Shown here: positions 8,860 to 29,419 of the stretch, piece by piece | Position numbering within the stretch: the stretch's first letter is position 1 | How the letters are laid out: every line of letters begins with the position of its first letter | Position numbers and translations under genes: made by a program | Assembly (NCBI GenBank): GCA_963661135.1 | Contig: CAVKZO010000003.1 | Coordinates: 1 to 53,393 of the forward strand | Length of the DNA stretch: 53,393 nucleotides | Direction: 5' to 3' | Source: Lachnospiraceae bacterium | GTDB lineage: Bacteria > Bacillota_I > Bacilli_A > RFN20 > CAG-826 | Notes under the pieces: generated by a model | Told to the model about the DNA's origin: nothing | The model's database searches: none | Seen by the model: only the letters and a program-made list of their open reading frames with translations

Positions 8860-9345
8860 TTAATTTTGTTTCTCTGCAATTTGTGAAATGCTGTAAGCTA
8901 AGTTTCTCATAGGTGCTTGAAGTACACTGAGTAACATAGAAAGCATTCCTTCTTTTGATGGTAAGTTTGCGAGAGTCTTGATGTAATCAGCATCTTTAAC
9001 TTGTCCATCGACTAATCCACCTTTAATAACTAAAGCTTCATTCTTTTTAGCAAATTTAGCTAAATCTTTTAAGCTTCCGTTAGTGGCATCTTTACAAAAA
9101 ACGAATAAGTTTGGTCCTTGTAAATAAACGTTTAAATCTTCATTTTCGCCAGTAGCTCTAGCAACTAATGTGTTTTTATAGACATTAGCATGAGCTTCTT
9201 TTTCCTTTAAAAGATGCCTTAATTCGCTCATCTTTTTAACTGTTAATCCACGGTATTCGCAGACTACGACAGCTTCACTAGCAGAAACTAAATCTTTAAC
9301 AGTATTAACAACGGATTCTTTTTCCTTTAATACGTCTTTATTCAT
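8860..9345 (-). CDS. rplJ: 50S ribosomal protein L10
   Basis: The product is 161 aa and sits immediately upstream of rplL. An AGGAGG SD is present. The motif VVCEYRGLTV is typical of L10. Confidence 0.95.
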   Translation of the reverse strand: MNKDVLKEKESVVNTVKDLVSASEAVVVCEYRGLTVKKMSELRHLLKEKEAHANVYKNTLVARATGENEDLNVYLQGPNLFVFCKDATNGSLKDLAKFAKKNEALVIKGGLVDGQVKDADYIKTLANLPSKEGMLSMLLSVLQAPMRNLAYSISQIAEKQN

Positions 9346-9481
9346 TGATTTACCTCCTAATATATTTTGAGGCTAAATATACAAATGAGGATCTATTAAC
9401 AACCTCGGTAACATTATTAAGACTATCCAATCGTCCGTTACTGTCTATGGTATATTCTGCCTTCTAAACTAATTTATTCAA
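9346..9481 (-). promoter_or_regulatory. Candidate rplJL leader (L10-leader type autoregulatory 5' UTR)
   Basis: A 136-nt non-coding gap separates rplA and rplJ, although neighbouring genes are packed within 25 nt or less. It is relatively GC-rich (ccgaggttgttaatagatcctc) and lies where L10(L12)4-binding leaders occur in Firmicutes. The structure was not verified. Confidence 0.4.
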
Positions 9482-11955: not shown

Positions 11956-12513
11956 ATGGAGCAACTTTTTTACAAAGATTTTAATAATTTTTTTATGGAG
12001 AATGTATTTTCAAATAATATTGCAGAAAGATACTTTCTCAAGAAAAACTTGAATCGAAGATTATTCAATAAAACGTTTCTATCCAAGAATATTTTTATAG
12101 ATAATTACATTAACTGGTTCTTTTATAAATATTATAATATGAATGAGTGCCACCATATAACATTTAATGAATTTATAGAGAAAACATCTAGTTTATTCGC
12201 ATTTACTATAAAAAATAATATAAGTAAGATTCATAAAAATGATAGGGAATCTATAGTTATATTTATAAAAAATATAAGATGTACATACATAAAAGTAGCT
12301 ATGAAAAGATTTAAAAATAAATATGCATATATCGGAGATTATTTTGTAAATATCAAGCATTACTTGAAATTGTTCTTTGCATTTTTTACTTCTATTATTC
12401 TCGATATTATTAAAGATGAAGATATAAATTATTCTCAATTAGACTTACCTTTATTAATGTCTTTATGTCTAGAAAGAAGATTTGCATTAACTATATTAAG
12501 AAATAAATATTAA
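11956..12513 (+). CDS. Hypothetical protein, 185 aa, with extreme Asn/Lys/Phe/Ile/Tyr bias
   Basis: It is an open frame with an AGGAG SD 7 nt upstream of the ATG. I recognise no family motif. It is noticeably more AT-rich than its neighbours and is divergent from rpmG. Confidence 0.5.
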   Translation: MEQLFYKDFNNFFMENVFSNNIAERYFLKKNLNRRLFNKTFLSKNIFIDNYINWFFYKYYNMNECHHITFNEFIEKTSSLFAFTIKNNISKIHKNDRESIVIFIKNIRCTYIKVAMKRFKNKYAYIGDYFVNIKHYLKLFFAFFTSIILDIIKDEDINYSQLDLPLLMSLCLERRFALTILRNKY

Positions 12514-12542
12514 TTATTTTTTAAAAGTTATAAAATTTATTT

Positions 12543-15443
12543 GTGAAGCTTAAATTTAATAAAGAAAAAATAAATAAAATTTTAAGATATATATTTTTAG
12601 CAGGATATATAACTTGTTTCATCACTTTAGTAGTTGAATCTTCTATGAATGGAGAAGTTTCAGCAACGCAATCAAATTCTTTAGGGAATAAAATCGCTGA
12701 CCTGATTGAAGGAGATGACAAAGATCCGGATCCCATTAATCCTACCTCTATAACCATCAATAATAAAATAAATGAAGCTTATGTAGGTGAAGAGTATACA
12801 TTAAATACATTAATATACCCTGATAATTCAACTTATAAAGGGATAAATTACGATATTTCTAATAAAGAGTTAGCTACTATTAATAGCGATGGTAAAATTT
12901 CTTTTTTAAAAGAAGGAGATATAACAATCACTGCTTCGAGTTCTTTTGATTCATCGATTTACGATGAGATGGATGTAACTATTAAAAATGTGATTGGAAC
13001 GTCTTTAGATGTGTCTTTATCGATTTATGAAAATAATAAATTCAGCAATATCAAAGAAGACAAAAATAATTACTACACGTTATATTCTAATAAAAATTAT
13101 CAAATTAATTCGGTTATTCAACCAGAAAATACCACTATTACGACTATTGACTATAGCCCTATTAAAAATGAATATTTTTCAATAAAAAACAATACATTAA
13201 CTACACTTAAATCAAGTGATGATTACATATCTTTGAATATCGAATCAAAGTACAATAATTTAATTAGAACAATTTATTTAAAGATCGTTGAAGATGAAAC
13301 AAATTTTGTACCTTTTGAATCTATCAAATTTGTTAATGAAGCTAAATTAAGTTTAATTACATCATGCTCATATTCATTAAAAACAAATAATTTTAGTTAC
13401 ATAATAAACAATAATTCATCAATACCAACATATTCTGAAGTAGACTTTTTAAGTGGTGATACGACGATTATAAATATCAAAAACAATATGATATACGCTC
13501 TAAAAGAAGGAAACGTTACTCTAACCTGTAGAAGTGTGAAATACAATAATATTTATTGCACTAAAGATATAGAAGTAAAAAACCAATCTTTGAAATCTAT
13601 GTCGATAACAATAGACGGAGTTAAAAACAAAAATAGTCTTTATATAAATACAACAAAAACATTTTTAGTTTCGTTTTCCCCTACTATTTTCACTCATTAT
13701 TCAAAAAATGATGATACTTTAGCATTTACATCGAGTAATGAAGATGTAGTTAAAATAATTGATAAGCAGAAAGGAAAGATACAGGTCGTAGGTTTAGGAG
13801 AATCTATAATAACTGCAACAATTAAAAATATCGAAGGATTTGATGATGTAACCGCAACATATACAATTGAAGGAATGGAGAAAAAATCATCAATAACTGG
13901 ATATGATTTAAATATAAAAACAATCGAGAAATCAGTAGATAATCAACAATATTTATTAACAAACAAAACATATAATTTATCAAATTATATCTCTATTGTT
14001 ACGTTTGAAGGTGATATAGATGAAAAAGAAAATATACCAAAAAAATTATCTTTTAAAATCATTAAGCTTTATAATCAATTAAATAACGAGATTGAAGAAG
14101 AAAATTACGATCAATATTTTTCTTTAACTAACACTAATTTGTTTGTAAAACAAAACTGTTCATTTTTACTTAAAACAATTCATGACGAAACAAAAATTGA
14201 ATACACTTCATCATTATTGAAATTCATAGTATATTCAAATCCTCTATTAGTTAATTCTTACGATATAAATAAACAAAACACATATGTAAATCCAACCTCT
14301 TTTAAAGTTGATAAAACTTATCAATTAGATTTTAATGTCCCAATTAACTATATAATATCATCTACGTCGACTCCTATATCGAGATTAAATTTAATTAATG
14401 ATAATAAATCAATTCAAATTACATCAGATGACATCGATAACTTCGATTTGATTATATTATCAGATACAAACCTGCCAGAAGAATTAGGCACTACTATTAA
14501 TATTCAATTTTCATATGTTTTACTCACTGGTTTTAAGCTAAATATATTTGATGACTTAAAAAACAAAATTGAAATAGCTAACAATAAAATTGATTTAATC
14601 AACAAAAATTCATATGACTTTACTATTGAATTAGATAACATACCTACAAAAAGTTTACTAAATATATATTCTTTAAATGATGATATTTTAGAAGTTAAAA
14701 ACGAAAAGTTAATTGTAAAAGACATAGGAAATACATCACTAATCATAGAAGATTCAGTTTCTAAAGTAATTGAAACATATGAGATTAGATGTATAAATTT
14801 AATAAAATTAAAAGAAAACGAAGAATATACCATCTCAGGAAATTCAAAATATTATGAGATTGATAACGAAGGAAAAATAACAATTTTAAAAGGATATTCT
14901 ATTAAAATTAATCCTAATTTTATAAATGATTCGACATATAAAATAGCAAATTATTCATCGTCTAATAAAGATGTTGTCGATGTTTCTAGCGATGGCGTAA
15001 TCACACCAATAAATAGTGGTTCAGCTTTGATAAACATTAAAATAGATGATGGGTTCTCTAATAAGATTGAAAAAGAAATCCAAATTGAAGTTAAAAGTTT
15101 AAATACAATTCAAAACATTGACAGATTTTTATTTCTAGTTAGAAAATCCCTTGGTCATTTTGGTGCTTTTTTCATATTAGGCATCTTTTCTTCTTTATTC
15201 TTTTTATTAACATTTAAAGGCGAAAAACGGATATTTAGTATTCCAATTAACTTTATTCAAGGATTCACAATTGCAAGCTTAACAGAATTAATTCAATGTT
15301 ATGTAATAGGAAGAAGCGGATTAGTAAAAGATGTAGGAATCGATATGTTTGGTTTTTTAATTAGTAGCATAGCGATAACTATCATTATATTAGCTATTTA
15401 CTTTATCAAGAAATATAAAGAAATACATAAAAAATTCAAATAA
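12543..15443 (+). CDS. Membrane-anchored surface protein: N-terminal TM helix, several Ig-like (Big_2-type) repeats, and a C-terminal VanZ-like 4-TM domain
   Basis: The N-terminal hydrophobic helix is ILRYIFLAGYITCFITLVV. Big_2-like strands recur: ATINSDGKISFLKEGDITITASS, IYALKEGNVTLTCRS, KIQVVGLGESIITATI, LIVKDIGNTSLIIEDS, DGVITPINSGSALINIKI. The C-terminus (about 15100-15440) has VanZ-like motifs: RKSLGHFGAFFILG and TELIQCYVIGRSGLVKDVGIDMFGFLIS. The start is GTG with no evident SD; a TAA at 12531 prevents any start further upstream. Confidence 0.75.
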   Translation: MKLKFNKEKINKILRYIFLAGYITCFITLVVESSMNGEVSATQSNSLGNKIADLIEGDDKDPDPINPTSITINNKINEAYVGEEYTLNTLIYPDNSTYKGINYDISNKELATINSDGKISFLKEGDITITASSSFDSSIYDEMDVTIKNVIGTSLDVSLSIYENNKFSNIKEDKNNYYTLYSNKNYQINSVIQPENTTITTIDYSPIKNEYFSIKNNTLTTLKSSDDYISLNIESKYNNLIRTIYLKIVEDETNFVPFESIKFVNEAKLSLITSCSYSLKTNNFSYIINNNSSIPTYSEVDFLSGDTTIINIKNNMIYALKEGNVTLTCRSVKYNNIYCTKDIEVKNQSLKSMSITIDGVKNKNSLYINTTKTFLVSFSPTIFTHYSKNDDTLAFTSSNEDVVKIIDKQKGKIQVVGLGESIITATIKNIEGFDDVTATYTIEGMEKKSSITGYDLNIKTIEKSVDNQQYLLTNKTYNLSNYISIVTFEGDIDEKENIPKKLSFKIIKLYNQLNNEIEEENYDQYFSLTNTNLFVKQNCSFLLKTIHDETKIEYTSSLLKFIVYSNPLLVNSYDINKQNTYVNPTSFKVDKTYQLDFNVPINYIISSTSTPISRLNLINDNKSIQITSDDIDNFDLIILSDTNLPEELGTTINIQFSYVLLTGFKLNIFDDLKNKIEIANNKIDLINKNSYDFTIELDNIPTKSLLNIYSLNDDILEVKNEKLIVKDIGNTSLIIEDSVSKVIETYEIRCINLIKLKENEEYTISGNSKYYEIDNEGKITILKGYSIKINPNFINDSTYKIANYSSSNKDVVDVSSDGVITPINSGSALINIKIDDGFSNKIEKEIQIEVKSLNTIQNIDRFLFLVRKSLGHFGAFFILGIFSSLFFLLTFKGEKRIFSIPINFIQGFTIASLTELIQCYVIGRSGLVKDVGIDMFGFLISSIAITIIILAIYFIKKYKEIHKKFK

Positions 15444-19641: not shown

Positions 19642-21093
19642 TTATTTTATTGATTTATATAATTCAATATATTTTAAAGCGCTATTTTCCCAAGAATGAG
19701 TTAAACTCATAGCGTTTTTAACTAATTTTAAATGCAAATTATGCTTTGTTAAATACGTATTTATAGCTTCTCCACAAGCCATGATGCAACTAGATGGATC
19801 CAATCTTTCAAAACCGAATCCATTAGCTTTATTTTCAATTGAATCATCAGAAATATAATTATAAGGAACTACTGTGTCTTTAAGTCCACCAGTAAGTCTA
19901 ACAATTGGTAAAGTTCCGTAACTTTGAGCGATCATTTGAGATAATCCACATGGTTCAAATGCGCTTGGCATAAGTAAAAAATCGCTTGCTGCATATACTT
20001 TATGAGCTAATTCTTCATTATATCCAATAAATACAGCAACATGCTTACTATTTCTTCTAGATAACTCTAAAAACATATCTTCAGCATGTTTTTCTCCACT
20101 TCCAATTATAATTACATTACTTCCTGTATAAGATAAATATTCAGTTGAATCATACATTAAATTAAGCCCTTTTTGGTCGGATAATCTAGAGATAATACAT
20201 ACAAGAGGTAATTCAGGATTTAAATTATATTTTTTACAAACTTCAACTTTATTAACTTTTTTCCCGTTTATAAAAGAAGAAATAGAATATTTTTTATATA
20301 TCAATTTATCTTTAGAAGGATTGAAAAATTCAATATCCATACCATTTAATATTCCGACAAAATCATCTTTCCTTAATGTTAAATCGTAAGATAATCCTTT
20401 ACTTCCTTCTTGAGTTAATAACTCATCGTGATGTGAAGGACTCACTGTAGTGATTTTATTTGCGTATACGATACCAGCTTTTAAGGTAGAAACTTGATCG
20501 TCTAATCTAACTTTACCTTCATCATATAATTTAACTGGTAAATTGTATAAATCGAATAAAGAATCTTTATTGAGATATCCTTTAAATAAAGGATTATGAA
20601 TCGTTAATACAGTTTTTATATTTTTAAAAACACCATTCTCTTTTAAATTCATATCCATATTTTTAATTAAACATGGGATCATCGCTACTTGATGATCATT
20701 TACATGAACTATATCAACCAAAAATGGTAATTTTTTAATCAATTCAATAATTGCATTAGAAAAATAAGCAAATCTTTCTCCATCATTATAATATCCATAA
20801 TAGTTGTCATTTTTAAAATAAGTATCATTTTCTACAAAATAAAAATCTATCTTATCTTTATATAAATGATATACATTTGTTTCAATGTTTCTCCAATTCA
20901 TTTTAACATTAAACGAATAGATCTTTTTAACACCTATTAACTTCTCTTTATCTTGTTTTTTATAATAAGGTAAAACAATGGATACTGAATGTTTTAATTT
21001 AGCATATTCTTTAGCTAAACTATAGACAACATCAGCTAATCCACCTGTTTTAAAAAATGGTAAACTCTCAGAAGAGCACAATAATATATTCAT
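19642..21093 (-). CDS. glgA: Glycogen synthase (ADP-glucose type)
   Basis: The 483-aa product has the N-terminal KTGGLADV motif. Its ATG overlaps the glgD stop (TAATG). Confidence 0.93.
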   Translation of the reverse strand: MNILLCSSESLPFFKTGGLADVVYSLAKEYAKLKHSVSIVLPYYKKQDKEKLIGVKKIYSFNVKMNWRNIETNVYHLYKDKIDFYFVENDTYFKNDNYYGYYNDGERFAYFSNAIIELIKKLPFLVDIVHVNDHQVAMIPCLIKNMDMNLKENGVFKNIKTVLTIHNPLFKGYLNKDSLFDLYNLPVKLYDEGKVRLDDQVSTLKAGIVYANKITTVSPSHHDELLTQEGSKGLSYDLTLRKDDFVGILNGMDIEFFNPSKDKLIYKKYSISSFINGKKVNKVEVCKKYNLNPELPLVCIISRLSDQKGLNLMYDSTEYLSYTGSNVIIIGSGEKHAEDMFLELSRRNSKHVAVFIGYNEELAHKVYAASDFLLMPSAFEPCGLSQMIAQSYGTLPIVRLTGGLKDTVVPYNYISDDSIENKANGFGFERLDPSSCIMACGEAINTYLTKHNLHLKLVKNAMSLTHSWENSALKYIELYKSIK

Positions 21094-22217
21094 TAAATAA
21101 TACTTCCCCCTTTTATATAAAGCGGTTCATCAAATGTTCCTTCTAAATGAGTTGAACTTTTAAAAACACATCTTTTATTAGCTACAACATTCTTTAAATG
21201 AACTCCACTTTTAACGATAGTATGTGAAAATAATATACAATTCTCTACACTAGCTCCATCTTCAACAATGACATCACGAGCTAAAATTGAATTTTTAACT
21301 GTTCCTGCAATACTGCTTCCGTTTGCTAAAATTGAGGAAGAGACATCCGCATGTTCTCCATAAAGTACAGGTCTAGAATTATGAGTTGTAGTGTAAATAT
21401 AAACATCTTTTGCTTTTAAAAATACATTATCTTCACCTTGTTCTAATAGTAACATTTGATTCTTAAAATATTTTTGGAACGAATTAAAGCACATTACTTC
21501 TTTTGTAAATGGTATACAATTAACTTTATTGTACATTTTATTATAATATTTAATCATATCTTTAATTGAATAAATATCACTAACTTTACTTGATTCTCTA
21601 ATTAATTCATCGAAGAAATCTCTATTAAAGATATAAATATCTAAGTTGACATTAAATTTACTATTTTTATCTTTATCTTGAATTTTTAAAAATTTTTGAG
21701 CGTTTCCAATAGCGTCTATTACGACCTTTTCACATCCTGAAAACATATTTACATCGCTTGTTTCTTTATAAACTAAACTGCAATCAGCTCCTTTTTCAAT
21801 ATGTTTTTCTAATACTTCTTGGAAATTAATATCTAATAAAAAATGGACTGGAGCAACAATTACGTAATCTGATTCATTATCATATAATAAATAATCGTTC
21901 TCTTTTAAATTATTGATATCAGTATTATATAAAGGATTTTGAGCACCATATTCATTAACCAACATCGAAAGGAATCCAGTTTTACTATTTTTTAAATATG
22001 TCGAATCTCGTGAAATATGTTTTGCAATATTTCTTCCGTGATCCTTAACTAAAACTGCTATATCATCAATCTCACTATTTGTAAAACAACTCAAAATAAA
22101 ATCGATGAAAGTATATCTACATAAAATTGTAGTGACAGCTTGAGGACGATTTTCTGTTAATTGCCCTAATGAAACGTCGTTATGTAAATCAACTAAACCT
22201 AAAACTTTATTAAGCAT
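21093..22217 (-). CDS. glgD: Glucose-1-phosphate adenylyltransferase, GlgD (non-catalytic) subunit
   Basis: The 374-aa product has a nucleotidyltransferase-like fold plus a left-handed beta-helix C-terminus, but it lacks the GGxGxRL motif. It lies between glgC and glgA, as in Firmicutes. Confidence 0.85.
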   Translation of the reverse strand: MLNKVLGLVDLHNDVSLGQLTENRPQAVTTILCRYTFIDFILSCFTNSEIDDIAVLVKDHGRNIAKHISRDSTYLKNSKTGFLSMLVNEYGAQNPLYNTDINNLKENDYLLYDNESDYVIVAPVHFLLDINFQEVLEKHIEKGADCSLVYKETSDVNMFSGCEKVVIDAIGNAQKFLKIQDKDKNSKFNVNLDIYIFNRDFFDELIRESSKVSDIYSIKDMIKYYNKMYNKVNCIPFTKEVMCFNSFQKYFKNQMLLLEQGEDNVFLKAKDVYIYTTTHNSRPVLYGEHADVSSSILANGSSIAGTVKNSILARDVIVEDGASVENCILFSHTIVKSGVHLKNVVANKRCVFKSSTHLEGTFDEPLYIKGGSII

Positions 22218-23350
22218 TATTGTAACTCCCTTTCTTTATCGATTAAAATTATTGAATCGCTATCTTTATTGACGACTTCATTCTCTTCAATTTCAGTTCC
22301 TGGACCAAGAATAGCATTATTTACAAAAGCATTTTTACCAATGATAACTCCAGGCATAAGAACGCTTCTTCTTACGATTGCTCCTTTTTCGATAGTAACT
22401 TCATTAGAGATTACACACTCTTCAACGTTACCTAAAATATAAGCGCCTTGATTGATTAAACAATCTTTAATCTTTGCATCTTTTCCGATATATTGAGGAC
22501 GAGATTTTGTATCTTCGCTAAAAACTTGTGGAAAAGTATTAAAAGCGATAGTATTTTCTTTTCTTCTTGAAGGTAATAACTCCATATTTGCTTCGTGTAA
22601 AGAATTTAAAGTACCGACATCTTTCCAATATCCTTTAAATCTATACGCGATAACTTTTTTGTTTTGTTTAAGTAAATTAGGGATGATATTCTTGCCAAAG
22701 TCATGATCAGATTTAGGATCTTTATGGTCTTCAATCAATGCTTTTTTAAGTGATTTATAAGTAAAAACATAAATTCCCATGCTAGCTAAATTACTCTTTG
22801 GTTCTTTAGGTTTTTCAACAAATTTTGTAATATTATCGACATTATCAACTTCTAAAATCCCAAATCTAGAAGCTTCTTCGATAGGTACTTCTAATACGCT
22901 AATCGTACAATCCGCTTTAGCTTTAATATGAGTTGCAATCATATCTTTATAAGTTGTTTTATAAATATGGTCTCCACTTAAAATTAAAACATATTCAGGT
23001 TCTTCACCATCTAAAAAGTCTAAATTTTTATAAATCGCGTCTGCTGTACCATCGTACCAGTTAGCACCTTCTTCAGTTTGTCTAGGAGGTAAAGCTAAAC
23101 ATACATTATCAACTCCATCAAAACCCCAAATTTCTCCATTTGAGACGTAACTATTTAAGACAACTGATTCATATTGCGTTAAAACTCCAACACAATCGAT
23201 TGAAGAATTAGCGACATTCGACAAGCAAAAATCGATAATACGATATTTCCCTCCAAAATAAACGGCAGGCTTAGCAACTTTTTTTGTTAAAGCCTGAAGC
23301 CTAGTTCCTTTTCCACCAGCCAAAATCATCGCGACGACTTTTCTTGCCAT
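22217..23350 (-). CDS. glgC: Glucose-1-phosphate adenylyltransferase
   Basis: It has the ILAGGKGTRL motif. I place the start at ATG 23350 (MARKVVAMILAGG), 7 nt after AAGGAG (23357-23362). The ORF-track start at 23380 would overlap the upstream gene by 20 nt and has no SD. Confidence 0.94.
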   Translation of the reverse strand: MARKVVAMILAGGKGTRLQALTKKVAKPAVYFGGKYRIIDFCLSNVANSSIDCVGVLTQYESVVLNSYVSNGEIWGFDGVDNVCLALPPRQTEEGANWYDGTADAIYKNLDFLDGEEPEYVLILSGDHIYKTTYKDMIATHIKAKADCTISVLEVPIEEASRFGILEVDNVDNITKFVEKPKEPKSNLASMGIYVFTYKSLKKALIEDHKDPKSDHDFGKNIIPNLLKQNKKVIAYRFKGYWKDVGTLNSLHEANMELLPSRRKENTIAFNTFPQVFSEDTKSRPQYIGKDAKIKDCLINQGAYILGNVEECVISNEVTIEKGAIVRRSVLMPGVIIGKNAFVNNAILGPGTEIEENEVVNKDSDSIILIDKERELQ

Positions 23351-23360
23351 ATTTTTCTCC

Positions 23361-26300
23361 TTATTTTTCTGCTTTTTCAAAAAGTTTTACAAAACTTCTA
23401 TTTTTATCATGTAACACGACGAGTGTTTCATCAACTAATTCAGAGATTTTACTTACCTTATCACTAGGAGCGCTGAGAATAACTTGAAGATTGAATTTCT
23501 TTAAAAGTCTAACTGCTTCTTTAAATCTTGTAGGGTCCATTTTTGAGAAGGCTTCATCAAAGATTATAAGTCTAGTTGTATTTGCAATCTCCCCTTCTTC
23601 ATTTGCATGATAAAGTTGAGAGAACGAAGCTAAAATAGCAATGTAGAATGGAGTTTGAGTTTCACCTCCAGATTTCTTTTTAATCATCTTAGAAAGACGT
23701 TGTTCTTCACCAGTCTCATTATTTGTGACTATTAAATCGAAATCTAAATAGCTTCTATAATCTGTGAATTTTTCAATATTTGCTATTAAATCTTGATTCT
23801 TTTTGCTTTCTCCATCACCAACATCGACGATTTGTCTAAATAAATCTTCCATTACATCTTTGTATTTTGTGATGTATTCACTTTCATCTTCTCCAGTTTC
23901 AAGAAGAAGATCGTCTTTTAGCATATCATAATATCTTCTATATACTTGACTTGGTTTAACAGTGAATCTATATGTATCTTTACCGAATACCGATTGAGCT
24001 AAAGCATCGTTTAAATTGTTGATTTGATCTTCAGCATCTTCGATAGCATTTCTTAATTTAAAGATGAAGTCGTCTTTAAATTGTTGTGTTGCTTTATGGT
24101 AACTATCGATAATTTTTTCTTTATATGAAGGAAGTTTAACTTCTTTAAAATCATTTAATTCATTGTCGAATTCTGTATTTTCTTCATTTTCAACATTATA
24201 TGATAAGTGATATGTAGAAGTGTATTCTCTTCTAGCCTTGACAAGACCTGTGAATAAATTATTTACAATATATTGAAGACGAGATAATTGAGCTGAGAAT
24301 AATGAGAATATTTCAATATTATTCTTCCCTTCTTCTTTCATTTTTTCAAATATAGGCATAGCATCATCATCGATCATAAATTGATCGTAGTTTGATTGAA
24401 GATTTGTTTCACGTTGTTTAACGTTAGCTTCTTCAGTTAACATCTTATCTTCTTTAATTTGCTTATTTTCAGTGATTAAGTTACCTTTTTCAATCAATGA
24501 TTTTTCTTTATCATCTTCGATAGCTCTAATATCATCTTCGATATCTTTAATTCTTCTATCTAAAGATTCAAGCAATGTTGTATCGTGTTCACTAAGTTGC
24601 TCTTCAACATACTTTAATGTTTCTTTTAATCCATCTAAAGAAGAAATCTTGTTGATTCTAGAAATGATTGTATCAATTTCGACATTAGATAAAATTTCTA
24701 ATTGGTTAGCGTTTGTAATCGTATCAGATAATTTTCTATAGTAATTTAAATTAGCGATATTATCTTTAAGTTGATTACTTTTTTCAGCAAAAAATCTATC
24801 GCTAACATTTCTACCGATATAAGATTCTTGATATAATCTTGGATTCATTTTTGTCAAAGCGAAATTACGATATAAATCGCATTCTTTTGTGATACCGTTT
24901 CCAAATTCTCTAGCTTCTTTAGCATCTTTTGCTTTATAAAGTCTTCCAATTAAGAAATTAGCGTAAGCTCTAGCGCCTTCATCATCAGTTATAATTTCTT
25001 CAGCTAAAGATTGAGCTTCACAATTATAATCTCTTTCGATAATTCTTTCTTGGTCGACTAAAGCGATGCCGTAAACTCCGTATTGAGATAACAATCTTCT
25101 TAAAATAGAATAAGCATCTAAATAATATTTAGGAGCTACGAAAAGATTAAATTTTTGATTGTATAAATATCCTTCGATAGCATTTGACCAAGATAAATCT
25201 TTAATATCAATCAAATCTGCAAAAATATTAACTTCGATATTTTTTCCATATTTTTCTTCCAATTGTTTTTCAAGTTCTTCTTTGATTGTTAATAAAGATC
25301 TATTGTAAGGCTTATGGCCCATCTTCATATTAGATTCTTCATCTTTCAAGCTTCTAATCTTCTTTTCTAATGTGCTTATTGATCTAGCTAAAGAAATCGC
25401 TAATGTGGATACTTTTTGTTTAAAAGAAGTCATTTTAATTTTTAATTCTTTTAATTCTTCTTCGGTGATATTGATGATTCCATCAGCGCATTTAGATGCA
25501 AAATCACCCATATATTTAAATGTTAATTTAGCTTCATCGATTAATGCGTTAATCTCTTCAAGTTTATCTTCATCGACGCTTTCCTTATTAATTAAGGATA
25601 GGTTATCTAAAATGCTTTTTGCATTCTCTTTATAATTTTCAACATATTTTGAAAGCGAATATGTAACTTTGACGATCGAATCCTCGATAAGTTTAATTTC
25701 ATCTTCACTCTCTTTCTTTTGTTTATATAAATCTTCGGTTAATTTTTGAGTTGAATTGCTAGCTTTATCTTGGATTAAAGCAATCTTTTTTCTATTTAAA
25801 GTCGCTAAATTCTCACCAAAATCAGCAAGTTCTAAATCGATTTGGTTAATTCTTTCTTCGTTTCTTTCAATTTGTTCTTTATATAATTTTAGTTTTTCTT
25901 TGCTTTGTTCTAATTGACATTTTTCGACAATATATTGAGCAATAATATAGTTTTTCTTATTATCTTTATAAGAGTTAAAAAGCTTTTCAACTTCTTCGAG
26001 TTTAGCGATTCTTTCTTCGATAGCTTTAGCTTCTTCCTCTAATCTTTTATATTCTAAAATATTTTCTTGAAGAACATCTAAATTGATATTAGCTTGAGGA
26101 TCGCAAACATATTCTGTGATAAATGTTGTAATATCAGTAATTGGAGTGAATGATGTAGCTTTCTTTAAAAGTCCAAAATATTTATCTTTCAATCCGCCAA
26201 ATTTCTTCTTTAAGAAATCTTGATATGCTCTATTTGAATCAAAAAATTGATAGTTACCATTATAATTTTCATTAAAGAATTTTGATAACATTTTATATTC

Positions 26301-26738
26301 CATCGGAATATTATCTTTAATAAATTCGTTTTCTGGGATTTTATCATCTAAACAAAAATATCTATGTTCTTCACTTCCATCATCATAAGAATCGAAAACG
26401 ATACCCATAGTGAAATCTGTATTATTTATATCATTATGAAATTCAAGTGCGATATAAGAAGTGAATCTTCCATTACGTAAATATTTAAAACCACCATCGA
26501 TCGTATCACCGATTTCACCTTTTAAGTAGCCTCTTAAAGTACGAGCAGGTTTATCCATAGCAGCTTTGTTAAAAAATCTACCAGTTGTATCACCTAAAAG
26601 AACAATTTGTAAAGCATCGATTAAAGTTGATTTACCACTAGCGTTAGCACCAGTTAAGAAAACTAAAGGCTTGACTTCGATTGTCTCGTTCCAAAAATAG
26701 TGCCAATTTATAATTTTAATTTTTGTTAAAAGTTTCAT
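23361..26738 (-). CDS. SMC-like ABC ATPase of the MksB/JetC type (1125 aa)
   Basis: The N-terminal Walker A is LTGANASGKSTLIDALQIVLLGD. Two long Glu/Lys/Leu-rich coiled-coil stretches flank a globular hinge-like block (about aa 500-640: LSWSNAIEGYLYNQKFNLFVAP...YIGRN). The C-terminus has KKKSGGETQTPFYIAILASF plus the Walker B RLIIFDEAFSKMD. An AGGAGG SD is present. Confidence 0.8.
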   Translation of the reverse strand: MKLLTKIKIINWHYFWNETIEVKPLVFLTGANASGKSTLIDALQIVLLGDTTGRFFNKAAMDKPARTLRGYLKGEIGDTIDGGFKYLRNGRFTSYIALEFHNDINNTDFTMGIVFDSYDDGSEEHRYFCLDDKIPENEFIKDNIPMEYKMLSKFFNENYNGNYQFFDSNRAYQDFLKKKFGGLKDKYFGLLKKATSFTPITDITTFITEYVCDPQANINLDVLQENILEYKRLEEEAKAIEERIAKLEEVEKLFNSYKDNKKNYIIAQYIVEKCQLEQSKEKLKLYKEQIERNEERINQIDLELADFGENLATLNRKKIALIQDKASNSTQKLTEDLYKQKKESEDEIKLIEDSIVKVTYSLSKYVENYKENAKSILDNLSLINKESVDEDKLEEINALIDEAKLTFKYMGDFASKCADGIINITEEELKELKIKMTSFKQKVSTLAISLARSISTLEKKIRSLKDEESNMKMGHKPYNRSLLTIKEELEKQLEEKYGKNIEVNIFADLIDIKDLSWSNAIEGYLYNQKFNLFVAPKYYLDAYSILRRLLSQYGVYGIALVDQERIIERDYNCEAQSLAEEIITDDEGARAYANFLIGRLYKAKDAKEAREFGNGITKECDLYRNFALTKMNPRLYQESYIGRNVSDRFFAEKSNQLKDNIANLNYYRKLSDTITNANQLEILSNVEIDTIISRINKISSLDGLKETLKYVEEQLSEHDTTLLESLDRRIKDIEDDIRAIEDDKEKSLIEKGNLITENKQIKEDKMLTEEANVKQRETNLQSNYDQFMIDDDAMPIFEKMKEEGKNNIEIFSLFSAQLSRLQYIVNNLFTGLVKARREYTSTYHLSYNVENEENTEFDNELNDFKEVKLPSYKEKIIDSYHKATQQFKDDFIFKLRNAIEDAEDQINNLNDALAQSVFGKDTYRFTVKPSQVYRRYYDMLKDDLLLETGEDESEYITKYKDVMEDLFRQIVDVGDGESKKNQDLIANIEKFTDYRSYLDFDLIVTNNETGEEQRLSKMIKKKSGGETQTPFYIAILASFSQLYHANEEGEIANTTRLIIFDEAFSKMDPTRFKEAVRLLKKFNLQVILSAPSDKVSKISELVDETLVVLHDKNRSFVKLFEKAEK

Positions 26739-26749
26739 AATCTCCTCCT

Positions 26750-27400
26750 TTAATTACCTTTATTTTCATCTAATAAAGGAGTTTGATCATCGCTATTTAA
26801 TTCATCTAATGCGTTGCTCATAGCAATAATTTTTTCATTATCTATAGCGTAAATTATGCTTGGTAAAATATAAAAAGATACATTGCCTTCATCGTAACTT
26901 CCGCTAACTTTAGAAATGATATTGTGATTTGCCATAAAACGTAAAGAACGGCCAATTAATCTACCAGTGATCTTTTTTCCTGGCATTTGAATACCATGAT
27001 CTAACATCATCTTTATTAAACTTGGTGTAGTCATATAAATCGATTGAGATGAACTATTTCCATTCTCTTGTTTTTCATCTTCATAAATCAATCTAAGAGT
27101 AAATAAAATTAAAGATGTTTCTCTATCGATTCTTATACGATTATCTTCATATTCATTATATAAAGAGAAAACTCCTAAAATTAAATCTTTATTTAAAACC
27201 CAACCAGCAAACTTTAAATAATCGTTGATCAGGTCATAATGTCTTTCTACAAATCTAAAATCAGGATTGACTCTAATAAGTTTTTCTCTATTATCAAAAA
27301 CATCTCTAACAATAAAACCTTTGAGCAATAATTTATTTACAATCTCAGCGAACTTTGTTTGATCGCTTCCGCTTAATTTAGAAAAATCTTCACTAAACAT
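26750..27400 (-). CDS. MksE/JetB-like (DUF4194-like) small subunit, 216 aa
   Basis: Its size, its position between the A-like and C-like genes, and its sequence pattern (IVNKLLLKGFIVRD...FVERHYDLINDYLKFAGWVLNKDLILGVFSL...ETSLILFTLRLIYED) resemble DUF4194. This was not confirmed with an HMM. Confidence 0.6.
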   Translation of the reverse strand: MFSEDFSKLSGSDQTKFAEIVNKLLLKGFIVRDVFDNREKLIRVNPDFRFVERHYDLINDYLKFAGWVLNKDLILGVFSLYNEYEDNRIRIDRETSLILFTLRLIYEDEKQENGNSSSQSIYMTTPSLIKMMLDHGIQMPGKKITGRLIGRSLRFMANHNIISKVSGSYDEGNVSFYILPSIIYAIDNEKIIAMSNALDELNSDDQTPLLDENKGN

Positions 27401-27402
27401 AC

Positions 27403-28842
27403 TTACTCTCCTTTACTATCGATACTATCTTTTTTATGAAATATAAAATTTGGAATGATATATCCATGATTTAAAATTTTACTATTATCACCATATTCGA
27501 TATAGTAGAAGCAATCTGGATCATCTTTTTTAACTGTTGCTAAAATAAGCAAAATAAATGCATCGTGATTTAATAATGGAATATCTTCACTTTTAACGTT
27601 ATCTGCACCATTAAAAGCACTATTCATAAATTCATAAACTCTTTCATCGTTATATGAATCTAATGTTTCATTTAAGAAGTTTTGCATAATGATATCACTA
27701 GCTTCTTCAAAATCAACGATTCCTAACGGGACACCTTCCTCTTTATATTTTCTTAATAATGGTAAAGTGACAGATTTACTATCGATATAACCTTGTTCAT
27801 AGTAGCTTAAACAATCTTGCATACCAGAAAGAATCTTAGCTAATTCTCTTCCATTATTTAAACTCTTACCATAGTGTTTAAAAATATTTTCTAAATGTCC
27901 TCTAATAGTCTTATCAGTGTTATTTAAATACAAAATCTTATTTGCACTACTTTTTGTATAAACGTTATTTTCTTTATCGATGTTACTAATCAAACTATTG
28001 ATTGTATCGTAAGTATCGCAAATATAGTTGATCATCGTAATAATTTCATTCTCTAATTTACTCTTATCAGATTCGTGTTTAATGACGCTAGCTTGCATAA
28101 CTAATTTTTCTCTAGTTTCTTTATCTTTTAACCACTTTTCAAGAATCCTAATGATAGGTTTTTTAAATTTTGCAACACTATCAAATGTTTTTAAAGGGTG
28201 ATAATATCTATCGCTAACTTTGTGCTTATATAAATCAAAATAATCATGTAAAACTTTATTTGTATGGAATGTTTTCCCTAATCTATTTTGATAAATTCTA
28301 ATCGTATGAACGATGGTCATCAATTCTAATTTTAATTTTTTAGTAGTCGTATATGCTCTTTCTAAAGTTGTAAAGAACAATTCATCTTTTTCTTCATCTT
28401 CAAGTTTTAATTCCGAATATGTTGAGTGAACTAAACTAACATATGGAGACTCTTCATCGTTGATGATATCTTTCATTCCCTTAAGTAAAAATATTGAATA
28501 TGTAGGAAGAATTACAGTTTCTTCAAAAGTTTCAGGATCGATAGCGATATCAATCCAACCAGTCTCTTCTAATCTTCTTACGATAAAACTAGCTTTGCTT
28601 GAAAGATTATCTAAAATAAGAGTCGAATCATCTTCACCATCAAACTCTTCATCTTCAAAATTAAAATCGATCAAATTTTTGTTTTTATCTTTTAAAGTTT
28701 TTATAAAATCATTTCTAGAAATTAAAGATTCATCATTCTCGAATAAGTCATATAACGTCATCAAACTTTCAGCGTAAATACTCTTATTTTTTCCGCTGAA
28801 TATTTGAAAGTAATTATCTGGTAAAATATTAAATAAATTCAT
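27403..28842 (-). CDS. MksF/JetA-like putative kleisin subunit, 479 aa
   Basis: It is the first gene of the trio and ends 2 nt before the B-like gene. The size matches JetA/MksF. I recognise no diagnostic motif, so the call rests mainly on operon context. Confidence 0.45.
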   Translation of the reverse strand: MNLFNILPDNYFQIFSGKNKSIYAESLMTLYDLFENDESLISRNDFIKTLKDKNKNLIDFNFEDEEFDGEDDSTLILDNLSSKASFIVRRLEETGWIDIAIDPETFEETVILPTYSIFLLKGMKDIINDEESPYVSLVHSTYSELKLEDEEKDELFFTTLERAYTTTKKLKLELMTIVHTIRIYQNRLGKTFHTNKVLHDYFDLYKHKVSDRYYHPLKTFDSVAKFKKPIIRILEKWLKDKETREKLVMQASVIKHESDKSKLENEIITMINYICDTYDTINSLISNIDKENNVYTKSSANKILYLNNTDKTIRGHLENIFKHYGKSLNNGRELAKILSGMQDCLSYYEQGYIDSKSVTLPLLRKYKEEGVPLGIVDFEEASDIIMQNFLNETLDSYNDERVYEFMNSAFNGADNVKSEDIPLLNHDAFILLILATVKKDDPDCFYYIEYGDNSKILNHGYIIPNFIFHKKDSIDSKGE

Positions 28843-28870: not shown

Positions 28871-28899
28871 ATTATATCTAAAAACCTATTCTTTTTAAA
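28871..28899 (-). promoter_or_regulatory. Putative promoter of the jetA-like gene
   Basis: The minus strand reads TTTAAA (28894-28899), a 17-nt spacer, then TATAAT (28871-28876). The -35 hexamer is overlapped by a 7+2+7 palindrome (28888-28903). Confidence 0.4.
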
Positions 28900-28942: not shown

Positions 28943-29419
28943 ATGAATACAAAGATTATCAAACCAAAAGCTTCATCAATTCTAAAAGTCTACATTCCTG
29001 TGATGCTAATCTTACTTATTGCAATCTACGGATTGCTATCTTCTAGATTTAAATGGGCTTACGCTGAAGGAGATAAAACTAGTTACATTCTTAAAGATTT
29101 ATTAGTCGTTTTAGGATGGTCAGTTTTATTTGTTGTATTTTTAATTTTAATGTTAAAGAAAAATTATTACGAAATAACAAAAAAAGAATTAATCCATAAA
29201 AGATTTGTAAACGAAGTCACATATTCTTTCGATAATGTAATTTATATCGATGAAGAATATACAATAAAACACAACACCCTTCTCTTTTACAATAAAGAAG
29301 GAAAATCTTTATTCTTAGTAATGGATAAAAAAGGTGAATTATTAAAGATTTTTAAACAAAATTGCCATAATTTAAAAAGTCATGACGAAGTTTTTAAGAA
29401 CAAAGGTATTAAATTATAA
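28943..29419 (+). CDS. Small membrane protein: 2 TM helices plus a bacterial PH-like (bPH_2-like) cytoplasmic domain
   Basis: Two hydrophobic helices are present (VYIPVMLILLIAIYGLL and LLVVLGWSVLFVVFLILML). They are followed by YYEITKKELIHKRF..., which resembles YdbS/YdbT-type PH domains. The gene is divergent from the jetA-like gene. Confidence 0.5.
   Translation: MNTKIIKPKASSILKVYIPVMLILLIAIYGLLSSRFKWAYAEGDKTSYILKDLLVVLGWSVLFVVFLILMLKKNYYEITKKELIHKRFVNEVTYSFDNVIYIDEEYTIKHNTLLFYNKEGKSLFLVMDKKGELLKIFKQNCHNLKSHDEVFKNKGIKL

What the first reader, a model, noticed from the sequence alone, without database searches (positions are those of the whole stretch)
23361..28842. JetABC/MksFEB-type SMC-like module without the JetD/MksG nuclease, sitting in a housekeeping neighbourhood
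Seen in sequence:
- Three co-oriented genes of 479, 216 and 1125 aa, separated by gaps of 2 and 11 nt.
- The 1125-aa protein has an SMC/Rad50-like layout. It has an N-terminal Walker A (GANASGKST), two long coiled-coil arms around a globular hinge-like block, and a C-terminal SGGETQ signature plus Walker B LIIFDEAF.
- The 216-aa protein resembles DUF4194.
- The 479-aa protein has the size and position of JetA/MksF.

Established knowledge:
- This A-B-C order and these sizes define type I Wadjet and the MksBEF condensins.
- In Wadjet a fourth gene, jetD (Toprim-type nuclease), follows jetC and is needed to cleave plasmid DNA.

Here the jetC-like stop is followed after 10 nt by glgC, so there is no room for a jetD remnant. 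The flanks are ribosomal and glycogen genes, with no mobile-element genes nearby.

Inference, three possibilities:
1. A nuclease-free MksBEF-like chromosome organiser in a lineage that normally relies on SMC-ScpAB.
2. A Wadjet whose effector is encoded elsewhere.
3. A variant that uses a different output.

The A-like subunit has no motif I recognise, so it may be a new kleisin family.
Basis: partly seen in the sequence, partly recalled or inferred. Interest (0 to 1): 0.72.

Follow-up and report, generated by a model that had tools for sequence, protein, structure and literature searches.

The report
Nuclease-free JetABC in gut Bacilli
These are three ordinary Wadjet genes (jetA, jetB, jetC) whose DNA-cutting partner jetD was lost long ago; a whole lineage of small-genome gut bacteria has since inherited them vertically beside its glycogen genes, most likely as a defence motor turned into a nuclease-free chromosome-handling SMC complex, a known kind of event seen here in a new lineage.

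Summary
On the minus strand lie jetA (28842-27403), jetB (27400-26750) and jetC (26738-23361), with gaps of 2 and 11 nt, and glgC starts 10 nt after the jetC stop. All three are standard type I Wadjet proteins, including the A subunit (Pfam JetA, E=2.5e-87), so the "new kleisin" idea is refuted. No JetD signal exists in the 53-kb window or within 10 kb of jetABC in 72 related species-level genomes. The JetD-less state is old, not a recent deletion. The crown clade (JetC 49-95% identical) plus four deeper lineages (35-42%) form one group in 200/200 bootstraps, with JetD-bearing systems outside it. Within the group, jetABC sits at a fixed housekeeping site next to glycogen genes. It co-diverges with its neighbours and is under strong purifying selection (dN/dS 0.03-0.04). 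The ATPase motifs are intact. The best reading is a domesticated, nuclease-free JetABC that works like the MksBEF condensins. That origin has already been proposed for P. aeruginosa MksBEF, so this is a new member of a known kind. Whether jetD or smc-scpAB lie elsewhere in these genomes could not be tested. Interest is moderate.

The parts
27403..28842 (-). jetA: kleisin subunit, 479 aa
   Evidence: Pfam PF18982 JetA, E=2.5e-87, over residues 30-471. PADLOC JetA1 PDLC00449, E=5e-120, full length. dN/dS 0.026 against L006.
26750..27400 (-). jetB: KITE subunit (DUF4194/MukE-like), 216 aa
   Evidence: Pfam PF13835, E=2.7e-12. PADLOC JetB1 PDLC00502, E=1.5e-68. dN/dS 0.025.
23361..26738 (-). jetC: SMC-like ABC ATPase, 1125 aa
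   Evidence: PF13555 AAA_29 (1.4e-16) and PF13558 SbcC_Walker_B (3.3e-26). PADLOC JetC1 PDLC00519, 1102 bits over residues 1-1124. The predicted layout is head, arm, hinge, arm, head. Foldseek's best matches are Wadjet JetC and MukB. dN/dS 0.038.
26625..26651 (-). JetC Walker A, GANASGKST (residues 30-38)
   Evidence: Nearly invariant across the clade.
23655..23672 (-). JetC ABC signature motif, SGGETQ (residues 1023-1028)
   Evidence: Invariant in 12 clade sequences.
23547..23570 (-). JetC Walker B, LIIFDEAF (residues 1057-1064), followed by the D-loop
   Evidence: I1058, F1060, D1061, E1062, A1063 and F1064 are invariant.
28871..28899 (-). Promoter-like site (TTTAAA, 17 nt, TATAAT) in the 100-nt jetA upstream region
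   Evidence: a consensus match only. It is the one 10/12 match in the intergenic region upstream of jetA (sequence).
23351..23360 (-). 10-nt jetC-glgC junction holding the glgC GGAG ribosome-binding site; no terminator
   Evidence: No minus-strand terminator-like site lies between jetA and the glg genes. Deep clade members have a terminator hairpin at this position instead.
19642..23350 (-). glgC-glgD-glgA: co-oriented genes that abut jetC and are probably co-transcribed with it; a conserved linkage, not a demonstrated functional part
   Evidence: 63 of 66 informative crown loci have glgC downstream of jetC, 56 of them within 150 nt. The sister lineages are also linked to glycogen genes.
28943..29419 (+). 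Divergently transcribed 158-aa gene with two TM helices and no family match: a conserved neighbour, probably not a subunit
   Evidence: No Pfam or PADLOC hit. Present directly upstream of jetA in 43 of 68 clade loci and in none of the 8 outgroup loci. Lost in one subclade that keeps jetABC.

Best explanation
Shown: this is a complete, intact type I Wadjet motor without its nuclease. It has JetA (kleisin), JetB (KITE dimer) and JetC (SMC-like ATPase). jetD was lost once, in the ancestor of a monophyletic group of Bacilli lineages. Since then the three genes have been inherited vertically at a fixed chromosomal site next to the glycogen genes, under purifying selection as strong as on the neighbouring housekeeping genes.

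Inferred: the complex still assembles as solved JetABC does. JetC dimers are closed by JetA and bound by JetB dimers, probably as a dimer of motors joined through the JetA N-terminal domains. It loads on DNA and uses ATP to extrude DNA loops. With no JetD to dock on the JetC heads it cannot cut DNA. Its retained function is therefore most likely DNA folding or handling on the host chromosome, like the nuclease-free MksBEF condensins of Pseudomonas aeruginosa and Mycolicibacterium smegmatis. In this window's sub-lineage, jetABC is probably transcribed together with glgCDA from a promoter upstream of jetA.
For: Identity: strong full-length matches to JetA, JetB and JetC models. The predicted SMC layout and Foldseek matches point to Wadjet JetC and MukB. 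ATPase motifs are intact and invariant.

No JetD: a JetD profile scores 436-795 bits in 8 of 8 outgroup loci. Its best score is E=0.3 in the window and in all 72 crown loci with 10-kb flanks. There is no JetD in the four deeper JetD-less lineages.

Ancient single loss: crown plus sister lineages group together in 200/200 NJ bootstraps. JetD-bearing P0126, P0137 and the 33-35% outgroup fall outside.

Housekeeping behaviour: the rpmB - jetABC - glgCDA synteny is fixed. Of 66 informative crown loci, 56 have glgC within 150 nt, 3 after 150-600 nt, 4 after one extra gene and 3 have lost glg but kept jetABC. JetC distances track GlgA distances (Pearson 0.85; JetA-GlgA 0.88). dN/dS is 0.025-0.038, similar to glgC at 0.025. 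There are no mobile-element genes or flanking repeats. No relatives occur on viral contigs, and only matches of 34% identity or less occur on plasmids. The genomes are small, with contigs of about 1.07-1.08 Mb carrying the locus.

[quoted passage not shown] M. smegmatis MksB sits in an operon with MksEF and follows the replisome (PMC11329512).
Against: There are no functional data of any kind, and the organisms are uncultured. Whole genomes could not be searched, so a jetD or another nuclease encoded elsewhere is not excluded. The probe with the nearest JetD listed only hits of 39% identity or more, so it could have missed a long-branch copy. The proteins belong to the type I Wadjet sequence family, for which loop extrusion on the chromosome 'has not yet been documented' (PMC10586767). 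Chromosome roles were shown for other Mks subfamilies. Basal members of the JetD-less group carry a conserved 2-TM protein in the former jetD slot, and it could be a partner of unknown function. Strong conservation would also fit a valuable non-nucleolytic defence role.
Confidence: 0.58

Rival explanations
1. It is a nuclease-independent defence or plasmid-control system. JetABC still recognises small circular DNA by extruding it completely and stalling. Instead of triggering cleavage, the stalled complex compacts, sequesters or silences the plasmid, or disturbs its replication or partition. This would be comparable to Smc5/6 silencing of extrachromosomal DNA.
For: All sequence features of the type I Wadjet motor are kept. 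Solved JetABC holds plasmid DNA in a tightly bent U-turn even without JetD (bioRxiv 10.1101/2023.11.03.565488). The review PMC10586767 places Smc5/6 among SMC complexes with roles in immunity against extrachromosomal DNA (abstract). The conservation pattern does not separate this reading from a chromosomal role.
Against: Defence systems are usually patchy, mobile and fast-evolving. This one has a fixed locus, co-diverges with its neighbours and has dN/dS of about 0.03.
Confidence: 0.2
2. It is a conventional Wadjet whose effector is encoded elsewhere in the genome. That effector could be a relocated jetD or an unrelated nuclease recruited to the JetC heads, and the system still cleaves plasmids.
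For: Whole genomes could not be inspected. The JetB N-terminus, which has been predicted to contact JetD, looks similar in JetD-less and JetD-bearing relatives. JetC head conservation is similar in both groups.
Against: jetD overlaps or abuts the jetC stop in all 10 JetD-bearing relatives examined. It is absent within 10 kb in 72 crown genomes and 4 sister lineages. This is weak evidence, because the list stops at 39% identity.
Confidence: 0.12
3. It is a decaying remnant of a Wadjet operon with no function.
For: Only the missing jetD.
Against: The reading frames are full length across at least 72 species. The ATPase motifs are invariant. dN/dS is 0.025-0.038 with dS of about 0.65-0.75. jetABC is retained even where the adjacent glg genes were deleted.
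Confidence: 0.02

Closest known systems
Type I Wadjet, JetABCD (also called MksFEBG or EptABCD); solved examples from E. coli GF4-3 and P. aeruginosa PA14
   Same: The same three protein families in the same A-B-C order and of the same sizes (PF18982 JetA, PF13835 JetB, PADLOC JetA1/JetB1/JetC1). The SMC-kleisin-KITE architecture is shared. Foldseek matches JetC chains 9qxx, 8q72 and 8dk2. The nearest relatives, at 38-39% JetC identity, are complete JetABCD operons.
   Different: There is no JetD Toprim nuclease in cis in any of more than 76 related loci. The locus is fixed, vertically inherited and under strong purifying selection, unlike a patchy, mobile defence island. In sequence it is very far from the solved complexes: the profile hit to 8dk1 is only E=8.5e-4, and JetA and JetB have no PDB sequence hit.
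Nuclease-free MksBEF condensins (P. aeruginosa MksBEF; M. smegmatis MksB with MksEF)
   Same: A three-gene kleisin-KITE-SMC operon without MksG/JetD. [quoted passage not shown] MksBEF is described as scattered over the tree, and only some systems have MksG (bioRxiv 10.1101/2022.10.04.510915).
   Different: The phylum differs (Bacillota, wall-less or small-genome gut lineages). The sequence subfamily differs too: the best models are JetA1/B1/C1, with only a faint MksE hit in one relative. Here the loss can be bracketed on a tree with JetD-bearing sisters still extant. No function has been shown.
MukBEF of gamma-proteobacteria
   Same: An SMC-kleisin-KITE complex thought to descend from a Wadjet-like ancestor. 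It is vertically inherited and acts as a housekeeping chromosome organiser. MukB chains are among the best fold matches (9gm6, E=1e-17).
   Different: The Pfam MukB N-terminal domain scores only 19.6 bits, below its cut-off of 23. There is no evidence here that SMC-ScpAB has been replaced.
Smc-ScpAB
   Same: The same general architecture and the same presumed loop-extrusion mechanism.
   Different: PF02463 SMC_N scores only 16.7 bits against a cut-off of 40. The kleisin and KITE belong to the JetA and JetB families, not to ScpA and ScpB.

Membership tests
Type I Wadjet (JetABCD) | JetA-family kleisin (PF18982/DUF5716) | tested here: met
   PF18982, E=2.5e-87, profile positions 2-434 of 434. 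PADLOC JetA1, E=5e-120.
Type I Wadjet (JetABCD) | JetB-family KITE (PF13835/DUF4194) | tested here: met
   PF13835, E=2.7e-12, profile positions 2-165 of 165. PADLOC JetB1, E=1.5e-68.
Type I Wadjet (JetABCD) | JetC SMC-like ATPase with intact Walker A, signature and Walker B motifs, arms and hinge | tested here: met
   PADLOC JetC1, 1102 bits, full length. Motifs located and invariant in the clade. Layout, fold matches.
Type I Wadjet (JetABCD) | Gene order jetA-jetB-jetC in one operon | tested here: met
   Gaps of 2 and 11 nt, all on the same strand.
Type I Wadjet (JetABCD) | JetD Toprim nuclease (PF09983 JetD_C with PF11795) encoded directly after jetC | tested here: not met
   glgC starts 10 nt after the jetC stop. 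The JetD HMM finds nothing in the window or in 72 crown loci (best E=0.3), but scores 436-795 bits in 8 of 8 outgroup loci. The four sister lineages are also negative.
Type I Wadjet (JetABCD) | JetD encoded anywhere in the genome | not testable with these tools
   Only 10 kb on each side of a gene can be read. The probe with the nearest JetD gave no clade-derived hit, but its list ended at 39% identity.
Type I Wadjet (JetABCD) | Restriction or cleavage of small circular plasmids | not testable with these tools
   This needs an experiment.
Nuclease-free MksBEF-type condensin | Kleisin-KITE-SMC operon that stably lacks the MksG/JetD gene | tested here: met
   Absent in the whole monophyletic group (200/200 bootstraps), with JetD-bearing lineages outside it.
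Nuclease-free MksBEF-type condensin | Evolutionary behaviour of a housekeeping gene (vertical descent, purifying selection, not in a mobile or defence island) | tested here: met
   Fixed synteny, co-divergence, dN/dS 0.025-0.038, housekeeping flanks, and no close viral or plasmid copies.
Nuclease-free MksBEF-type condensin | Acts on the chromosome (organisation or segregation) | not testable with these tools
   This needs Hi-C, ChIP or genetics in a heterologous or cultured host.
MukBEF | MukB, MukE and MukF family domains | tested here: not met
   PF04310 MukB scores 19.6 bits against a cut-off of 23, over residues 7-56 only. There are no MukF or MukE hits for the window proteins.
Sole condensin that has replaced Smc-ScpAB | Absence of smc, scpA and scpB from the genome | not testable with these tools
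The RFN20 papers and their supplements say nothing on SMC.

The most novel reading that the evidence does not exclude
This monophyletic JetD-less JetABC lineage could be a Wadjet caught in the act of domestication. After losing its nuclease it would have become a core chromosome-folding motor of small-genome, largely wall-less gut Bacilli. In at least part of the lineage it may have taken over from Smc-ScpAB. That would be an independent replay of the proposed Wadjet-to-MukBEF/MksBEF transition, with JetD-bearing sister systems (38-39% identical) still available for direct comparison. A further unexcluded twist concerns basal members of the group, where jetD was replaced in the same slot by a small, lineage-restricted 2-TM protein with no known fold relative. 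That protein could be a membrane tether or a new partner of the motor.
Probability: 0.15. Interest if true: 0.75.

Novelty: new member of a known kind. Interest (0 to 1): 0.42.

Why it matters
SMC specialists have proposed that chromosome organisers such as MukBEF and MksBEF descend from the Wadjet plasmid-defence system by loss of the nuclease. The known examples are old and isolated. Here the loss can be placed on a tree. JetD-bearing sisters at 38-39% identity lie outside, and inside is a JetD-less group that has behaved like a housekeeping operon across at least 72 species-level genomes plus four deeper lineages. This gives a natural paired set, motor with nuclease and motor without, for asking two questions: what changes when a DNA-cutting SMC machine is tamed, and whether a type I JetABC motor acts on chromosomes, which has not been documented so far. 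There is also a practical point. Defence-system annotators that see JetA, JetB and JetC hits in these abundant gut MAGs should not count them as a working Wadjet. If these genomes also lack Smc-ScpAB, the case would become a second, independent MukBEF-like replacement.

Tried and rejected
1. New kleisin family: rejected, because JetA is a full-length PF18982 match.

2. Recent deletion of jetD: rejected, because no relative down to 35% JetC identity inside the group has jetD.

3. jetD remnant in the longer jetC-glgC spacers (L058, L059) or in the extra slot genes: no JetD-profile signal. hhalign of the slot family against JetD gives probability 0.1%.

4. Slot gene as a substitute nuclease: the AlphaFold model is confident (pLDDT 81.5) but has no significant PDB match. 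The weak hits are START/Bet v 1-like, and none is Toprim or nuclease-like. There are no PADLOC or Pfam hits.

5. The window's upstream 158-aa 2-TM gene as an obligate partner or a relative of the slot family: it is present in only 43 of 68 clade loci, and hhalign gives probability 1.5%.

6. Mapping the JetD-docking residue (E. coli JetC F919) onto this JetC: not possible. Sequence similarity to solved JetC is too weak, and the fold search gives no residue mapping.

7. Looking for relaxed constraint in the clade's JetC or JetB relative to JetD-bearing relatives: the conservation profiles are similar, with no clear lost patch. Inconclusive.

8. jetD encoded elsewhere, probed with the nearest JetD: no clade-derived hit, but the list stops at 39% identity, so the result is inconclusive.

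9. SMC-ScpAB status from held loci and from RFN20 papers and supplements: nothing found either way.

10. Mobile-element origin: no flanking repeats, no viral relatives, and only distant plasmid-borne Wadjets.

11. Assignment of the clade to GTDB order RFN20: could not be verified from the papers held. It remains my inference from the MAG names.


Full report
**1. Observation**

- 27403-28842, 479 aa
- 26750-27400, 216 aa
- 23361-26738, 1125 aa

The gaps are 2 and 11 nt. The next gene, glgC, has its ATG at 23350, 10 nt after the jetC stop, with a GGAG ribosome-binding site in the gap. The quoted motifs are present: GANASGKST at residues 30-38, SGGETQ at 1023-1028 and LIIFDEAF at 1057-1064.

**2. 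Identity of the proteins**

All three are ordinary type I Wadjet components.
- The 479-aa protein matches Pfam JetA (PF18982) over the whole profile at E=2.5e-87, and PADLOC JetA1 at 5e-120.
- The 216-aa protein matches DUF4194/JetB (PF13835, 2.7e-12) and PADLOC JetB1 (1.5e-68).
- The 1125-aa protein matches AAA_29 and SbcC_Walker_B, and scores 1102 bits on PADLOC JetC1 over residues 1-1124.

NCBIfam has no specific model for them. The suggestion that the A subunit is a new kleisin family is therefore wrong.

By sequence this subfamily is far from the solved complexes. A clade profile reaches P. aeruginosa JetC (8dk1) only at E=8.5e-4, and JetA and JetB have no PDB sequence hit.

An AlphaFold model of JetC has low confidence (pLDDT 65). 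Its secondary structure still reproduces the plan of head, arm, hinge (about 500-645), arm, head. Foldseek's best matches, all at probability 1.00, are Wadjet-II JetC (9qe0, 3e-21), MukB (9gm6, 1e-17), E. coli JetC (9qxx and 8q72, about 1e-11 to 1e-10) and P. aeruginosa JetC (8dk2, 7e-10).

**3. Surroundings in the window**

The window has about 28% G+C, and table 11 translation works. It carries:
- rpoC, rpoB, rplL, rplJ with its L10 leader, rplA, rplK and nusG
- a Big_2/VanZ surface protein
- pheS, pheT, yceD, glgA, glgD and glgC
- jetCBA
- a 158-aa 2-TM gene, rpmB, rpsT, holA, mnmA and dtd
- ABC transporters, a GH3 enzyme, NAD-salvage genes, tpi, pgk and gap

.

The window contains no integrase, transposase, jetD, smc or scpAB. 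No repeats flank the module. The strongest promoter-like site near the start lies upstream of jetA (28899-28871), and no minus-strand terminator-like site separates jetA from the glg genes. Co-transcription of jetABC with glgCDA is therefore likely, but this is an inference.

**4. Is jetD missing only here?**

No. JetC homologues are abundant in uncultured MAGs labelled Bacilli, Mollicutes or Candidatus Onthovivens. Gene contexts at 85%, 71% and 61% JetC identity all show rpmB(-rpsT) - small ORF - jetABC - glgCDA.

A scan of one genome per species returned 80 loci:
- 72 loci form a discrete 'crown' clade with 49-95% JetC identity.
- 8 loci lie at 33-35% in unrelated taxa: Paenibacillus, Desulfosporosinus, Treponema, Spirochaetaceae, Oscillospiraceae and a Firmicutes MAG.

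The eight distant loci all carry a JetD (PF09983) overlapping or abutting the jetC stop. A JetD HMM built from them scores 436-795 bits in all eight. Its best score anywhere in the window or in the 72 crown loci is E=0.3.

Of the 66 crown loci with enough downstream sequence:
- 56 have glgC within 150 nt (median gap 31 nt).
- 3 have glgC after 150-600 nt.
- 4 have one extra gene before glgC.
- 3 have lost glgCDA, so that leuS and tex follow jetC directly, but they keep jetABC.

**5. Placing the loss**

An exhaustive search of 1.8 billion representative proteins showed the crown collapsing into two or three 50%-identity clusters. Intermediates follow at 42%, 41% and 39%, before a continuum at 35-38%. 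Their contexts are:

| Protein | Context | JetD |
|---|---|---|
| P0124 | jetABC followed by glgCDA, with glgB and plsC upstream | no |
| P0125 | jetABC followed by glgCDA, with glgB and plsC upstream | no |
| P0133 | followed by glgA | no |
| P0128 | followed by an alpha-amylase-family gene | no |
| P0126 | JetD after jetC (PADLOC JetD1, 2.7e-125) | yes |
| P0137 | JetD after jetC (265 bits, cut by the contig end) | yes |

In a neighbour-joining tree of JetC, three groupings each appear in 200 of 200 bootstraps: the crown, the four JetD-less sister lineages, and the two together. All JetD-bearing lineages fall outside.

The simplest history is one ancient loss of jetD in a module already linked to glycogen genes.

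**6. Is the module functional and vertically inherited?**

- Between the window and its closest relative (L006; dS about 0.65-0.75), dN/dS is 0.026 for jetA, 0.025 for jetB and 0.038 for jetC. This compares with 0.025 for glgC and 0.088 for glgA.
- Across 60 loci, pairwise JetC distances track GlgA distances (Pearson 0.85; JetA-GlgA 0.88). JetC evolves at about the same rate as GlgA.
- Head and hinge residues, including all ATPase motifs, are invariant or nearly so.
- No relatives are found on viral contigs, and only distant ones (34% or less) occur on plasmids.
- The locus sits on contigs of about 1.07-1.08 Mb that are probably near-complete genomes, so 5.5 kb is being retained in very small genomes.

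This is how a housekeeping operon behaves, not a defence island.

**7. Accessory genes**

*The slot gene.* In the sister lineages, and in the deepest crown members (L061 and L052, with L051 and L077 marginal), the former jetD slot holds a 290-380-aa protein. It has two N-terminal TM helices and a beta-rich domain.
- These proteins form one small family. L089 matches L094 at E=8e-52, and a family profile reaches L061 at 5e-8.
- Only 25 clusters exist among 5.8 billion proteins, and every named one is a 'Bacilli bacterium' MAG.
- The gene lies between jetC and glgC in every context seen.
- It has no Pfam or PADLOC match and no profile similarity to JetD.
- A confident AlphaFold model (pLDDT 81.5) has no significant PDB match. 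The weak hits are START/Bet v 1-like, and none is nuclease-like.
- The window has no such gene; its best six-frame hit is E=4.3.

*The 158-aa gene.* The window does have a divergent 158-aa 2-TM gene upstream of jetA. That gene is present in only 43 of 68 clade loci and is unrelated to the slot family. Neither gene can be called a subunit.

**8. Mechanism**

Shown: an intact JetA-JetB-JetC set without JetD in cis, conserved like a housekeeping operon.

Inferred from solved JetABC(D) complexes:
- JetC dimers are bridged by the JetA kleisin and bound by JetB KITE dimers.
- They form a dimer of motors that extrudes DNA using ATP.
- In JetABCD, a JetD dimer docks on the JetC head 'larynx' and cuts the DNA held between stalled motors.

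Without JetD the motor cannot cut. The most economical reading is a nuclease-free, MksBEF-like complex that folds DNA and acts on the chromosome. There is precedent. [quoted passage not shown] M. smegmatis MksB is encoded with MksEF and follows the replisome (PMC11329512). 'Some' MksBEF systems carry MksG and others do not.

I put this reading at about 0.58. The rivals are:
- a non-nucleolytic anti-plasmid function (0.20)
- a nuclease encoded elsewhere (0.12)
- decay (0.02, contradicted by the selection analysis)

**9. What could not be done**

Only 10 kb around a gene can be read, so jetD, smc, scpA and scpB elsewhere in these genomes could not be checked.
- A search with the nearest JetD returned 120 hits from 100% down to 39% identity. 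All the named ones are Clostridia-type taxa. None is from the clade and none has a matching contig size. A long-branch copy could still lie below the cut.
- Papers on the RFN20 and related lineages describe small genomes and TGA as a stop codon, but say nothing about SMC. Their held supplements contain no smc, scpA or scpB orthologue identifiers.
- The assignment of the crown clade to GTDB order RFN20 is my inference from the MAG names and was not verified.

**10. Verdict**

The module is not a new system and not a new kleisin. It is a type I JetABC that lost JetD once, long ago, and has since been kept as a core-like operon in a lineage of gut Bacilli.

Conceptually this is a known kind of entity: a nuclease-free MksBEF derived from Wadjet. 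I found no description of this lineage in the papers searched. Its value is as a well-bracketed natural example of Wadjet domestication. That value would rise sharply if these genomes prove to lack Smc-ScpAB.

Interest 0.42; novelty: new member of a known kind.

Noticed in passing
L089:11488-12516, L094:10832-11980, L088:12055-12993, L096:7001-8026; divergent copies at L061:13478-14398 and L052:13430-14347: A small protein family restricted to this lineage occupies the former jetD slot between jetC and glgC in the basal JetD-less lineages. It has two N-terminal TM helices and a beta-rich domain of about 200 aa. Only 25 clusters exist among 5.8 billion proteins. It has no Pfam or PADLOC hit, and a confident AlphaFold model has no significant PDB match (the weak hits are START/Bet v 1-like). 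It is absent from the window.
   Followed up: yes
window 28943-29419 (+): A 158-aa protein with two predicted TM helices and no family match is transcribed divergently from jetA and shares its 100-nt upstream region. It is conserved at this position in 43 of 68 clade loci, including the deepest ones. It is absent from all 8 JetD-bearing outgroup loci and has been lost in one subclade.
   Followed up: partly
L088, L089-L091, L096-L099 (sister lineages): In the sister lineages the gene order is glgB - plsC - jetABC - slot gene - glgC - glgD - glgA. The module therefore sits inside a glycogen operon. The linkage between jetABC and glycogen genes persists across lineages with 26-50% G+C and only about 35-42% JetC identity. 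No functional reason is known.
   Followed up: partly
L053:13379-13481, L078:13385-13465, L058:13385-13584, compared with window 23351-23360: Deep crown members have a clear terminator hairpin with a T-run (GACCAC...GTGGTCTTTTTTT) right after jetC. In the window's sub-lineage the spacer has shrunk to 10 nt holding only the glgC ribosome-binding site. This suggests a secondary fusion of jetABC and glgCDA into one transcription unit.
   Followed up: partly
window 11956-15443 (+): A low-G+C stretch (23-24%, against about 33% for the region to its left) shows reversed AT skew. It carries two plus-strand genes among minus-strand housekeeping genes: a 185-aa ORF with no family match and a 966-aa Big_2/VanZ surface-type protein. 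A Big_2/VanZ gene also lies next to yceD in the relative L004.
   Followed up: no
L006, L016, L019, L020, L027, L031, L075, L079 (record titles): Several species-representative assemblies that carry this low-G+C Bacilli locus are titled as unrelated organisms: Lachnospiraceae GAM79, Slackia isoflavoniconvertens, Acutalibacteraceae, Parabacteroides goldsteinii, Phocaeicola dorei, Bacteroidaceae and Gemmiger formicilis. The organism names of these 'cleanbin' records look wrong.
   Followed up: no
L086:50-1922: About 6-8 kb upstream of jetA in the P0037 genome, two type I restriction specificity (Methylase_S) genes flank a phage-integrase-type recombinase. This is the layout of an invertible hsdS shufflon.
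   Followed up: no
window 9338-9468 (-): An Rfam L10_leader match (44.8 bits against a gathering score of 44) lies upstream of rplJ. It is an ordinary ribosomal-protein autoregulatory leader.
   Followed up: no
L046, L055, L084 (13360-18260): Three crown genomes have lost glgCDA and the following DUF362 gene, so leuS and tex follow jetC directly. They still keep jetABC and the upstream 2-TM gene. Retention of jetABC therefore does not depend on the glycogen genes.
   Followed up: partly
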